Assembly (NCBI GenBank): GCA_964016885.1
Contig: OZ024743.1
Span: 197,470,001-197,534,000, forward strand
Direction of reading: 5' to 3'
Source of the DNA: Eledone cirrhosa
Taxonomy: Eukaryota
DNA length: 64,000 bases
The translations under genes and the position numbers were made by a program. Below are positions 37,830 to 46,713 of the stretch, piece after piece; the first letter of the stretch is position 1; every line of letters begins with the position of its first letter. Below the pieces are notes generated by a model. That model was given only the letters and a program-made list of their open reading frames with translations. It searched no databases and was not told the origin of the DNA.

Positions 37830-38165
37830 ATACATATTTGTGTGTGTGTGTGCTTGTTCCTGTACTTGTGTGGTTCGGTGTAAATCACATCGTTTGTAAA
37901 ATTGCCATTTTTGCTAGTACACTGCTACAAATATATATGTATATGCCCGTGGGCAGGAATAAAGCTGTATAGTTCACAGCGATTAGAAACGATAAACATA
38001 ATAGTGAAATTCATGTTCTAGGATAATCAAGTTTAAATAGATTATCTAATTAAAATTTAGTACTAAATAATACAGTCGCAGCTGTAGAGAAATGTAATTT
38101 AATATAGCTTGTACTAATATCATAAATCTTATACCACTTTTAATATTTCACTCCCGTATAACCCT
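37830..38165 (+). repeat. Unclassified interspersed repeat (copies at 42950-43340 minus and 45995-46690 plus; distal part also at 42055-42290)
   Basis: tgcttgttcctgtacttgtgtggttcg..ctagtacactgctacaaat..cagtcgcagctgtagagaaatg shared. Confidence 0.8.
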
Positions 38166-38380
38166 TTTCATTTCTCACTCTTAGTAAGTATGCATACTTA
38201 TATTTAAGTAGCAGCCGTACTAAGAGTGAGAAATGAAATTTCGTTTCACTTTTTCCGTTTATCGTTTTCGGTACCCGGGCCGATTAACTCACTCGATATG
38301 CAAATTAGGCTGCTCAGCCGTTAATATGCATAAGGAAAGTATATACTTTCAGACGTTCAACCATCTGGCAGGAAGGTATG

Positions 38381-38421
38381 CGTTGCTGACGATAGCTAAT
38401 AAGCTTGAAACTAGTACAGCG
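38381..38421 (+). ncRNA. Minimal type I hammerhead ribozyme
   Basis: CGUUG-CUGACGA-UAGC(UAAUAA)GCUU-GAA-ACUAGU-A-CAGCG. Confidence 0.88.
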
Positions 38422-38811
38422 TTCCTTTGTCAGTGTTGAATAAATGAGCAACGATGGTTGCTAGACACTGTACGGCTTAATTCGGGTTGTTTGTTTACAA
38501 ACACACCGAGCATTATAATAAATGTTCGGTGAATCCATACGTACATGTATATATGTGTGCATGTATGTATATATATATATACATACTACTGTACGTCTGT
38601 ATACATATATGTATGTAGGTATACATACTTATATTTAAGTAACAGCCGTACTAAGAGTGAGAAATGAAATTTCGTTTCATTTTTTCCGTTTATCGTTTTC
38701 GGTACCCCGGCCGATTAACTCACTCGATATGCAAATTAGGCTGCTCAGCCGTTAATATGCATAAGGAAAGTATATACTTTCAGACGTTCAACCATCTGGC
38801 AGGAAGGTATG

Positions 38812-38852
38812 CGTTGCTGACGATAGCTAATAAGCTTGAAACTAGTACAGCG
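38812..38852 (+). ncRNA. Minimal type I hammerhead ribozyme (second copy)
   Basis: Identical to 38381-38421. Confidence 0.88.
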
Positions 38853-39899
38853 TTCCTTTGTCCGTGTTGAATAAATGAGCAACGATGGTTGCTAGACACT
38901 GTACGGCTTAATTCGGGTTGTTTGTTTACAAACACACCGAGCATTATAATAAATGTTCGGTGAATCCATACGTACATGTATATACGTGTGCATGTATGTA
39001 TATATATATATACATACTACTGTACGTCTGTATACATATATGTATGTAGGTATACATACTTATATTTAAGTAACAGCCGTACTAAGAGTGAGAAATGAAA
39101 TTTCGTTTCATTTTTTCCGTTTATCGTTTTCGGTACCCCGGCCGATTAACTCACTCGATATGCAAATTAGGCTGCTCAGCCGTTAATATGCATGAAGAAA
39201 GTATATACTTTCAGATATCCTGGTTGAAGAATAATTATACATATGTATAAATTTTATCTGTAACATATTATTTTATTTTATTTTTACCTTATATATACCT
39301 ATATACATAATAGTTATTCAAATATTTATAACAATAAGTACTTCAAAAGTTTTACATACATAATATGTTGGGATATTTGTTAACGTTTAGATTTGGGTAA
39401 TTAATCAACAGTATAATATTTCATTCTTTACGTGCCAGCTAAATCCTTTAAAATATTTTTCTCACAATTCAGAAGTTTAGAAATGATAACACACTTATCG
39501 AATTTATATAAATAATATATAATTAAATAGCAAATAATCCTGAAATCTGGAGTCTTCACATTAATATTATAAATTAAATATTTCCAAATTCTAACAGTTT
39601 AATTTTCGACCCCCCCCCCACACTTTATCTTTCCCTCCTTATAAATCTTTTTCCAGTGGCTATCACTGGCTGTTATGACTCATGAGACGTTTCCCTAGAT
39701 ATTATTGTATCATACAATTTAAAATTTTAGAACACTTTAAGTATGCAACGTTTTTTCTTACTCACACATTCTCTAATGAATTCATTACGTTTTCGCACTC
39801 TCACAAAGATATTATATAAGCAAAATTTTCTATCGAGTAATCACTACCTTGATTAAATCTTAACCATTTAACATCTCAGGGTATGTCATGTATCATTAT

Positions 39900-42675: not shown

Positions 42676-43374
42676 AACGTGTAATTCACAGCCACTTGCA
42701 CGTTAATTTCACGAGCAGGCTGTTCCGTTGATCAGATCAACTGGATCATTCGTTGTCGTAAACGATGGAGTACAAGTTCATATCTTTCATCGTTTTCTAA
42801 TGTAAGAGGTTGCCTATGGTTTTAAGATAAAATTGTATTTGGAAGAATTTAAGAATAAGATTACCATAATCACTTTTAAGATAGTGTTTTGTACGTAACT
42901 TAAAATGTCTTACATCAACTTTTGGTGGAAGATTTAAAATAAATATTAACATTTCAAAACAAATAGTTTTGTATTGTACAGGTAGGGGCTTTTTCAGGTG
43001 GTTTGGTATCAAAAGGGTTATACGGGAGTGAAATATTAAAAGTGGTATAAGATTTATGATATTAGTACAAGCTATATTAAATTACATTTCTCTACAGCTG
43101 CGACTGTGTTATTTAGTACTAAATTTTAATTATACAATCTATTTAAACTTGATTATCCTAGAACATCAATTTCACTTTTATGTTTATCGTTTCTAATTGC
43201 TGTGAATTATACAGCTTTATTTCTGCCCACGGGCATATACATATATATTTGTAGCAGTGTACTAGCAAAAATGTCGATTTTACAAACGATGTGATTTATA
43301 CTGAACCACACAAGTACACGAACAAGCACACACACACAAATATGTATATATATATATATATTTATTTACGTACG

Positions 43375-43930
43375 TATAGCACGGAATGCATGTGTATAAA
43401 CACACACGCACCGTGTTATATTTTGACGGTATTGTATTAGCTCAATGTACGAGAACAGAGCTGTCATATGTAAAAGAACCCAAAGAACGCTTACATACTG
43501 AAACAGTTTTTATTTGCTTACAATGTTTCATTCATACCGTTGGGTGGGAATCATCAGAGCTTAATAAACACACTGCTGAGTATAAGCTCTACCAAGCTTA
43601 GTCACACGAACAATCGGAATACAATAGAGGGTAAAGATAGGGAGATCGGAGATGGCGAATAAGGAGAGAGTACATGCTGGGGTTGTTAAGCACCACAGCT
43701 AAATGCTAGGGCACAAGCAGATCTCACAAGATGCAGATACAATTGATGGCACACAAAATCAAAAATACAATAGCCCCACAATATTATTTCAGTTACTGTA
43801 AAACCAGCTGGCAAAGAGTTACTACACATGTATTAAGCTCAGATGATTCCTACCCAACGGTATGTATGAAACATTGTAAGCAAATAAAAAAAGTTTGAGT
43901 ATGTAAGCGTTCTTTGGTTTCTTTTACATA
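43375..43930. mobile_element. Inverted-repeat element (arms ~43465-43567 and 43831-43930); hammerheads at 43516-43560 (minus, intact) and 43837-43881 (plus, U4A)
   Basis: Minus: GCU-CUGAUGA-UUC..GAAU-GAA-ACAUUGU-A-AGC. Confidence 0.8.
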
Positions 43931-44032
43931 TATATATATATGTATATATATTCCCCATTTTGACGCTATAGTCACTTATATGTTATGGAATACTGTTAGC
44001 TTCTCGCTACAACAATTTCTATACTTTTCATT

Positions 44033-44061
<29 letters not shown>

Positions 44062-44063
<2 letters not shown>

Positions 44064-44703
44064 ATAAATATTTCGTATCTCCAAAGAAATACGGTTTTAG
44101 GAAGCCGTAGTTATGCAAACACAGGGAGGGGGGGCTAACGCCCTCTGGTGATGTCCAGCAGAAGCAAGAGGTACAAGCGTCTATGCATTTCAGGCTTAAC
44201 TGGCCATCGTCAGGACGGACCCTCCCACCGCTTGCAACTGCTGGACTTGAAGACAGGCGAGAATATATAGTTTTCTCATCTGTGTAAATGAGGTGATTAA
44301 TCTCATTTGCATATGAAGCTGCATAAGTTGGCTCAACTTATAATAGAAAAGAAATAGGATTTCGCTTCAAGTATAGCTTAATTATAAGTTGAGTCAACTT
44401 ATGCAGCTTCATATGCAAATGAGATTAATCACCTCATTTACACAGACGAGAACACTATATATTCTCGCCTGTCTTCTAGTCCAGCAGTTGCAAGTGGTGG
44501 GAGGGAGCGTCCAGACGATGGCCAGTTAAGCCTGAAATGCATAGACGGTTGGCCCCCTTGCGTCTGCTGGACTTCGCTAGAGGGCGTTAGCCCCTTGGTG
44601 TTTGTATAGCTACGGCTTCCTAAAACCGTATTTCTTTGGAGATACGAAATATTTATACATATTGTATAAAGCTATGCTTGAAGCGAAATCCTATTTCTTT
44701 TCT
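44062..44703. mobile_element. Head-to-head pair of a ~323-nt hammerhead unit in two circular permutations
   Basis: Arms 44062-44344 and 44381-44658; spacer 44345-44380 is the reverse complement of tail 44669-44703. Confidence 0.85.
44178..44217 (-). ncRNA. Minimal type I hammerhead ribozyme (mutated twin at 44508-44547, plus)
   Basis: CGUC-CUGACGA-UGGC(CAGUUAA)GCCU-GAA-AUGCAU-A-GACG. Confidence 0.88.
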
Positions 44704-44752
<49 letters not shown>

Positions 44753-45913: not shown

Positions 45914-45996
<83 letters not shown>

Positions 45997-46713
45997 AATA
46001 TTTGTGTGTGTGTGTGTGCTTGTTCCTGTACTTGTGTGGTTCGATGTAAATCACATCGTTTGTAAAAATTGCCATTTTTGCTAGTACACTGCTACAAATA
46101 TATATGTATATGCCCGTGGGCAGGAATAAAGCTGTATAGTTCACAGCGATATATGTATATGCCCGTGGCAGAAATAAAGCTGTATAGTTCACAGCGATTA
46201 GAAACTATAAACATAATAGTGAAATTCATGTTCTAGGATAATCAAGTTTAAATAGATTGTATAATTAAAATTTAGTACTAAATAATACAGTCGCAGCTGT
46301 AGAGAAATGTAATTTAATATAGCTTGTACTAATATCATAAATCTTATACCACTTCGAATATTTCACTCCCTATAACCCTTTTGATACCAAACCACCCGAA
46401 AAAGCCTCTATCTTTACAATTCAAAACTATTTTCAAGAAAGATATAACAAGAATTTCAATTGATTTTGAAATTTTATATTGAATATATTTAATTTGGTTC
46501 TTAATATATTTCGGCGAAAACGACCTTACTGAACGAGTTAAAGGAATGCAGAGAGATGTTGATGGTGGTTCCGAAGATACTCTGAATTATGAGGAGTTAG
46601 GAGATAGGTTCCGATAATTCAGTTCAAGGCTTTGATGGTTACTCTAATGTCTTGAATTTTTCCTGGGATTTCTTGAGACAGGTATCAGGTGCGATCCTCC
46701 GTCTTCCTGCTTT

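What the first reader, a model, noticed from the sequence alone, without database searches (positions are those of the whole stretch)
44062..44703. A ~323-nt ribozyme unit captured in two circular permutations
Seen: the plus arm runs 44381-44703. The minus arm starts with what is the plus arm's 3' tail (44380-44345 equals 44669-44703), continues without a gap into the unit start (..ttttct|attataagttg..) and ends at the equivalent of 44658. Each arm is about one full turn from a different start, and the HHR is mid-unit and uncut. Inference: both cDNAs were copied from a circular or tandem RNA and primed at different TA-like sites, a genomic footprint of a retrozyme circle being reverse transcribed.
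Basis: partly seen in the sequence, partly recalled or inferred. Interest (0 to 1): 0.85.

Follow-up and report, generated by a model that had tools for sequence, protein, structure and literature searches.

The report
Retrozyme insertion with Penelope-type double priming
This is one mirror-image copy of an abundant 323-base non-coding repeat carrying a predicted self-cutting RNA motif; its shape matches the known footprint of Penelope-like jumping genes, which likely copy it from a looped or tandem RNA, and the 'one full turn per arm' seen here is not a rule across its sister copies.

Summary
Window 44061-44703 is a back-to-back pair of arms of a 323-nt hammerhead-bearing unit, one arm reading tail-to-start without a gap. 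It belongs to a dispersed family (336 exact hits of a 37-nt motif). In 84 unselected loci the tail-to-start junction recurs 58 times. Arms end at two fixed sites about 39 nt apart (unit ~282 and ~321), usually against TA/CA repeats. Of 38 two-armed insertions with both ends intact, 36 have one end of each kind. This is the published Penelope-like element (PLE) pattern of inverted arm plus one-sided 30-40-nt tail, so this is a new family of animal non-LTR retrozyme. Arm lengths run 23-631 nt with no peak at one turn (8 of 126) and no pile-up at the ribozyme cut site, so two one-turn arms are not a circle signature; they meet at a short AT-rich microhomology. Both arms and successive turns share rare variants, pointing to one source unit, but DNA cannot separate a circle from a uniform tandem RNA. 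No RNA run and no partner PLE were found. The scan has reported this kind before, in this genome and others.

The parts
44061..44382 (-). Inverted arm: unit 286-323 then 1-279, ending at the family's short 3' end (no tail)
44345..44382 (-). Upstream partial turn (unit 286-323), contiguous with unit start; same junction as in 51 of 84 loci
44175..44220 (-). Predicted minimal type I hammerhead, core intact; U.U at the base of stem II (139T subfamily); predicted cut between 44182 and 44181
   Evidence: not matched by Rfam
44378..44382 (.). Back-to-back junction at an AT-rich microhomology: 5 nt on the family majority, 3 nt on this copy's own haplotype, with one substitution at 44380
44381..44703 (+). 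Direct arm: one unit, ending at the long 3' end (with tail)
44505..44550 (+). Hammerhead copy with a core substitution at 44513 (U4 to A), likely inactive
   Evidence: effect of the change inferred from the conserved CUGANGA core
44653..44669 (+). Predicted hairpin (unit 273-289) whose loop holds the short 3' end, the inferred first reverse-transcription start
   Evidence: fold; ends
44663..44703 (+). About 39-41 nt tail between the two 3' end sites, present on this arm's end only
   Evidence: PMC11167929
44033..44060 (.). Left (TA)n/(GT)n target tract
44704..44752 (.). Right (AT)n/(GT)n target tract

Best explanation
This is a two-armed insertion of a 323-nt non-coding hammerhead repeat (an animal non-LTR retrozyme) that was likely copied into a TA microsatellite by the reverse transcriptase and nuclease of a Penelope-like element acting in trans. 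Shown: two fixed 3' ends about 39 nt apart, one per arm; variable 5' starts; reading past the unit junction and up to 2.7 turns; microhomology at the back-to-back joint; microsatellite flanks; arms of one insertion sharing variants. Inferred: the nuclease nicks both strands of the TA tract. One nick primes cDNA at the hairpin loop near unit 282 and the other at the tail end near 321, both inside the RNA. Each cDNA runs backwards round the unit for a variable distance. Their 3' ends anneal through 1-5 nt of chance complementarity and copy each other, giving the mirror-image shape with a tail on one side. The template is an RNA that can be read for more than one turn from one source unit. I put about even odds on a ribozyme-made circle (or end-held nicked monomer) against a uniform tandem transcript. 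The near-one-turn length of both arms here is chance plus a favourable AT-rich joint.
For: Ends: 55 short, 71 long, 31 other of 157 arms. One short plus one long in 36 of 38 unselected pairs with both ends canonical (binomial p 1.5e-9 against independence) and 58 of 60 over all loci. 161 of 192 canonical ends are followed by a dinucleotide run against 551 of 2480 background 30-mers. Microhomology of 2 nt or more at 44 of 65 flush joints against 16% at random; the other 20 of 85 joints have inserted bases. Junction read-through in 51 of 84 loci; 35 of 126 arms exceed 333 nt. Same source: site 139 identical in 37 of 38 arm pairs and 22 of 23 turn pairs; rare variants shared by arms 9 vs 1.05 and by turns 16 vs 0.9 in controls; shared by all 3-4 readings of one insertion 8 vs 0.04. 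The genome holds RT plus C-terminal GIY-YIG frames of 844-1096 aa. A purified PLE protein nicks both strands of AT-rich DNA and starts inside the RNA at two sites that define the tail (PMC11167929).
Against: No partner PLE sharing sequence with the unit was found in 50 GIY-YIG loci (best hit 29 nt, E 0.023), and none of 49 free 5' flanks runs into one. Rfam does not call the ribozyme. Variants shared by only some readings of an insertion are also in excess (20 vs 4.6), and L121 and L137 show DNA-level unit duplication, so conversion, duplication or mixed templates account for part of the sharing. In vitro, the PLE showed no strand preference for either start site and did not need ribozyme cleavage (PMC11167929), so the strict one-of-each rule and any role of the ribozyme are unexplained by that work. 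No target-site duplication could be read in the repeats.
Confidence: 0.8

Rival explanations
1. Same enzyme and ends, but the template is an uncut linear read-through RNA from tandem copies; no circle is involved and the ribozyme is a passenger. This differs from the best explanation only at the template step.
For: A 10.8-unit array exists (L137). No scar or start excess at the cut site (indels 3 of 914 vs 171 of 35,523; starts 4 of 157 vs 2.4). Arm numbers fall off beyond about 440 nt (9 of 126). L124 has two variants in the upstream turn of both arms only. In vitro, uncut RNA was the main substrate (PMC11167929).
Against: The one long array found carries 131T in 10 of 10 turns, an allele seen in 4 of 164 family readings, so it is not the main source. 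No other long array was among the 40 best candidates of a two-turn query (a lower bound). Subfamily markers are uniform across turns, and matched-turn sharing (7 cases) does not exceed mismatched-turn sharing (6) among three-reading sites.
Confidence: 0.4
2. One reading: each arm is one full turn of a circle, stopped when the enzyme met its own start.
For: True of this locus and of L066 (324/324 nt); short arms are somewhat dense at 256-325 nt (18 of 55).
Against: No peak at one turn (8 of 126; windows 10,4,7,7,6,8,5,3,3,7,8,1); 35 of 126 arms go well past one turn; arm lengths within an insertion are uncorrelated (rho 0.17, p 0.33, n 36); L066 and this locus share one microhomology register.
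Confidence: 0.05
3. The inverted arm arose by fold-back: self-priming on an antisense RNA (proposed for PLEs in PMC3846280) or an inverted DNA duplication after insertion.
For: Arms share haplotype and rare variants; a few loci (L036, L087) have two long ends.
Against: Fold-back predicts joints near-symmetric in the unit or at set palindromes, but the joined start pairs are scattered round the unit. A DNA duplication would not stop at the other fixed end in 58 of 60 cases.
Confidence: 0.1

Closest known systems
Animal non-LTR retrozymes (Cervera and de la Pena 2020, PMC7229834; Li, Clavereau, Pollet 2026, bioRxiv 10.64898/2026.07.22.740005)
   Same: 150-450-bp non-coding unit with a type I hammerhead, short palindromic stem III, stable predicted fold, monomers to multimers, PLEs in the same genome. 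Circular RNA as template for a PLE RT is their stated hypothesis.
   Different: Mostly dispersed 0.2-2-turn insertions with inverted arms rather than arrays. Circles and cleavage are shown for coral, mussel and axolotl but untested here. The parts I read do not describe two fixed 3' ends or inverted arms for retrozymes.
Endonuclease-bearing Penelope-like element insertions (Craig et al. 2021 PMC8557442; Arkhipova et al. 2013 PMC3846280; Frangieh et al. 2024 PMC11167929)
   Same: Partial tandem, adjacent inverted 5'-truncated copy, 30-40-bp tail often at one end only, AT-rich or microsatellite targets, microhomology at 5' joints, ribozyme upstream of the two start sites.
   Different: No open frame and no identified parent element; the whole element is the repeat unit.
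PLE minimal hammerheads and the circular-template proposal (Cervera and de la Pena 2014, PMC4209133)
   Same: Palindromic short stem III predicted to work as a dimer; opposite-strand pairs 100-700 bp apart were already noted; circles proposed as templates for more-than-unit copying.
   Different: Stem II here is 4 bp and stem I up to 7 bp, closer to the canonical animal type than to the 7-8-bp stem II of minimal PLE motifs.

Membership tests
Animal non-LTR retrozyme | Short (150-450 bp) non-coding unit in head-to-tail copies | tested here: met
   323-nt unit; 58 junction crossings in 51 of 84 loci; arms to 2.7 turns; one 10.8-unit array
Animal non-LTR retrozyme | Type I hammerhead in each unit | tested here: met
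   Family majority has full core and stems; core intact in 130 of 181 readings; descriptor 0 hits in shuffles; Rfam silent
Animal non-LTR retrozyme | Loci with two consecutive complete ribozymes (the 2026 preprint's 'active' criterion) | tested here: met
   7 of 157 unselected arms hold two cores, 4 with both intact; not met at the window locus, whose two motifs are on opposite strands
Animal non-LTR retrozyme | Stable self-paired fold of the monomer | tested here: met
   Circular fold -109.1 kcal/mol vs -72.1 +/- 4.3 for 60 shuffles; enforcing the hammerhead costs 6.5 kcal/mol; minus arm z -5.9
Animal non-LTR retrozyme | Self-cleavage and expression as circular RNA | not testable with these tools
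   No RNA holder listed
PLE-type insertion | Optional 30-40-nt tail between two 3' end sites | tested here: met
   Ends at ~282 (55) and ~321 (71) of 157 arms
PLE-type insertion | Adjacent inverted 5'-truncated copy, tail on one side | tested here: met
   58 back-to-back pairs in 84 loci; 36 of 38 short+long
PLE-type insertion | AT-rich or microsatellite target | tested here: met
   161 of 192 ends vs 22% background
PLE-type insertion | Target-site duplication | tested here: inconclusive
   Flanks are dinucleotide repeats
Autonomous PLE | Open frame with RT and GIY-YIG | tested here: not met
   No PLE protein match at E<=1e-4 in the window and none contiguous with an arm in 124 loci
Derivative of a named PLE | Homology to the terminal repeat of an autonomous PLE | tested here: inconclusive
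   None in 50 of 150 listed GIY-YIG loci, out of 10,595 candidates

The most novel reading that the evidence does not exclude
Every two-armed insertion is made from a single circular RNA engaged at two sites 39 nt apart by one PLE protein dimer. Each target strand primes one site, both cDNAs roll round the same undegraded circle by displacement, and their tips are joined by microhomology. This would explain the strict one-short-one-long rule and the variants shared by all turns and both arms, and would give one mechanism for the tandem, inverted and tailed shapes of all endonuclease-bearing Penelope-like elements.
Probability: 0.25. Interest if true: 0.7.

Novelty: new member of a known kind. 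Interest (0 to 1): 0.35.

Why it matters
How animal retrozymes move, and how Penelope-like elements make their tandem, inverted and tailed insertions, are both still open (stated in 10.64898/2026.07.22.740005 and PMC8557442). This family ties the two together with counts: two fixed start sites used one per arm, same-source arms, and copying past one unit. At 323 nt it is a compact substrate for an in vitro test of circle against line. The locus itself is a dead-end copy and the kind is known.

Tried and rejected
Rfam gave no hammerhead call; its weak microRNA matches only reflect the hairpin and AT repeats. One-turn peak: absent. Starts at the ribozyme cut site: 4 of 157 vs 2.4 expected; a few arms (L007, L010, L076, L089) begin at 162-165 but not above chance. 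Scar at the cut site: none. Master array: the only long one found has a private allele rare in dispersed copies and internal DNA duplications. Partner PLE: none matched among 50 loci; a decayed PLE frame beside L120 is separated from the arm by about 130 nt of other sequence, part of it a repeat shared with other flanks. Shared 5' flanks among 49 free ends gave 11 pairwise hits at differing start positions, not a common upstream continuation. RNA: no RNA holder listed. Three runs of unknown kind from one sample, laid as contigs, show loose TA ends at the same two end positions but may be the source sample, so they are not counted as support. A second ribozyme family ending in a similar 12-nt motif was considered as a link to a partner; it is too short to judge.

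Full report
Observation. The finding's coordinates hold. Taking 44381-44703 as unit positions 1-323, the minus arm reads 286-323 and then 1-279 without a gap. The arms differ at 20 of 284 compared sites and share three non-majority bases. Both ends abut TA/GT repeats. The unit holds a minimal type I hammerhead: stem I 125-131 with 164-170, core CUGACGA, a 4-bp stem II, GAAA, a palindromic UGCA stem III and a predicted cut after position 163. A descriptor for it finds 3 sites in the window and none in 100 shuffles. Rfam does not report it, so the call rests on the motif and on the description in PMC4209133 (passages). The plus-arm core has a substitution at 44513, and the two motifs face opposite ways, so this locus is a product rather than a source.

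The family. A DNA search of the own genome gave 86 matches from 40 scored candidates; these favour full-length copies. To avoid that bias I searched an exact 37-nt motif near the 3' end: 336 hits, 0 for the reversed control. I took all 100 listed places, which merge into 84 loci and 157 arms after dropping 7 duplicate loci and one locally duplicated arm. With the biased sets added, 124 loci and 229 arms were used for variant tests.

Ends. 3' ends are bimodal: 55 near 282, 71 near 321 and 31 elsewhere. Exact positions blur by a few bases because both sites resemble the TA target. 161 of 192 canonical ends are followed by a dinucleotide run, against 551 of 2480 background windows. Back-to-back pairs are the commonest form (58 in 84 loci). 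Of the 38 with both ends canonical, 36 are short plus long, 2 long plus long and none short plus short; over all loci it is 58 of 60. The short end lies in the loop of a predicted hairpin, 273-289. This is the PLE layout: a partial tandem, an adjacent inverted truncated copy and a 30-40-bp tail often on one end (PMC8557442, passages; PMC3846280, passages). A purified PLE protein cuts both strands of AT-rich DNA and starts inside its RNA at two sites that bound the tail (PMC11167929, parts 1-2 of 4 read).

Starts and joints. 5' starts fall all round the unit. Lengths of the 126 canonical arms run 23-631 nt, median 251, with 8 in 313-333 and 35 above 333. A two-turn query found arms up to 2.7 turns and one 10.8-unit array. 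There is no excess of starts at the ribozyme cut (4 of 157 vs 2.4) and no scar there. The tail-to-start junction is crossed 58 times in 51 of 84 loci with a constant sequence. Of 85 joints, 65 are flush, and 44 of these have 2 nt or more of microhomology against 16% at random; 20 have inserted bases. The window's joint has 5 nt on the majority sequence and 3 nt on its own haplotype (the register printed is one base off and I read the letters by hand). L066, the only one of 36 unselected short+long insertions with both arms near one turn, uses the same register. So the two-permutation look is general, and the one-turn lengths are not.

Circle or line. If all turns are read from one unit, its variants should appear in every turn and in both arms. 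The subfamily site 139 is identical in 37 of 38 arm pairs and 22 of 23 turn pairs, and the two alleles have similar divergence (0.030, 0.026). Rare variants are shared by arms 9 times (control 1.05, maximum 4) and by turns 16 times (control 0.9, maximum 4). At 2532 sites read three or four times in one insertion, 8 are non-majority in all readings (control 0.04). Against a clean reading, 20 sites are shared by only some readings (control 4.6, maximum 12). Sites 75 and 88 disagree between turns in 2 of 17 and 2 of 15 two-allele comparisons. L121 and the array show DNA-level duplication, and L124 has upstream-turn-only variants in both arms. The control also ignores age differences between loci. 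The array is not the main source (131T in 10 of 10 turns, 4 of 164 family readings). Seven of 157 arms hold two tandem cores, 4 with both intact, so loci able to release a monomer exist. I conclude that both arms come from one source and that copying passes one unit. A covalent circle, a nicked monomer held by stem I, strand transfer on a terminally redundant RNA and a uniform tandem RNA all remain open, with about even odds on the circle class.

Partner. The genome is rich in GIY-YIG matches (150 scored of 10,595 candidates). Frames of 938, 844 and 1096 aa have the RT motif before a C-terminal nuclease, and most of the 19 printed C-termini show a cysteine cluster before it like that described for the Neptune and Nematis clades (PMC8557442). 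No tree was built. None of 50 loci shares more than a 29-nt AT-rich match with the unit. Trans-mobilisation is therefore inferred from shape.

Known and new. Animal non-LTR retrozymes are short tandem units with type I hammerheads expressed as circles, and PLE enzymes copying those circles is the published hypothesis (PMC7229834, parts 2-4 of 6 read; PMC4209133). A 2026 preprint links them to PLE terminal repeats and says the mechanism is unresolved (parts 1-3 of 5 read; supplements not seen and may bear on element structure). A review gave background (PMC6765202, passages). Five literature searches found no count of the one-short-one-long rule or of same-source arms, but the library lacks most subscription journals and the qualitative pattern is in print. 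Earlier notes of this scan describe the same kind in this genome and others; none matched this sequence or place. They were read after my reading was set.

Verdict. This is a real feature and a new family of a known kind, best explained as a PLE-type double-primed insertion of a retrozyme. Interest 0.35.

Noticed in passing
window 38184-39215 (+): A second hammerhead-bearing tandem, 431-nt period, about 2.4 turns, 98.5% between turns, motifs at 38382 and 38813; relatives in many loci such as L129, L013 and L181.
   Followed up: partly
window 43008-43355 (-) and 45990-46385 (+): An inverted pair about 2.6 kb apart that encloses the finding and matches window 37900-38170, the stretch just upstream of the 431-nt tandem; possibly nested insertions in one microsatellite-rich spot.
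   Followed up: partly
window 43466-43566 and 43831-43931: A 101-nt inverted repeat, 93% complementary, 264 nt apart, just left of the finding.
   Followed up: no
L186:5078-5411; also L150, L185, L074, L013, L077: A third ~333-nt repeat with a hammerhead-like core that ends against (AT)n in a 12-nt motif resembling this family's short end.
   Followed up: partly
L137:3131-6435: 10.8-unit array of this family, 5'-truncated and ending at the short end, all 10 readable turns sharing one private base, with an internal block duplication.
   Followed up: yes
L171, L172, L173: Uninterrupted PLE frames of 938, 844 and 1096 aa; no hammerhead-like motif near their starts by my scan.
   Followed up: partly
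L057 and L059: Two insertions with the same back-to-back joint but the short and long ends swapped, suggesting a joint hot spot used twice.
   Followed up: partly
L176, L185: Coding PLE copies in this genome also sit as back-to-back inverted pairs.
   Followed up: no
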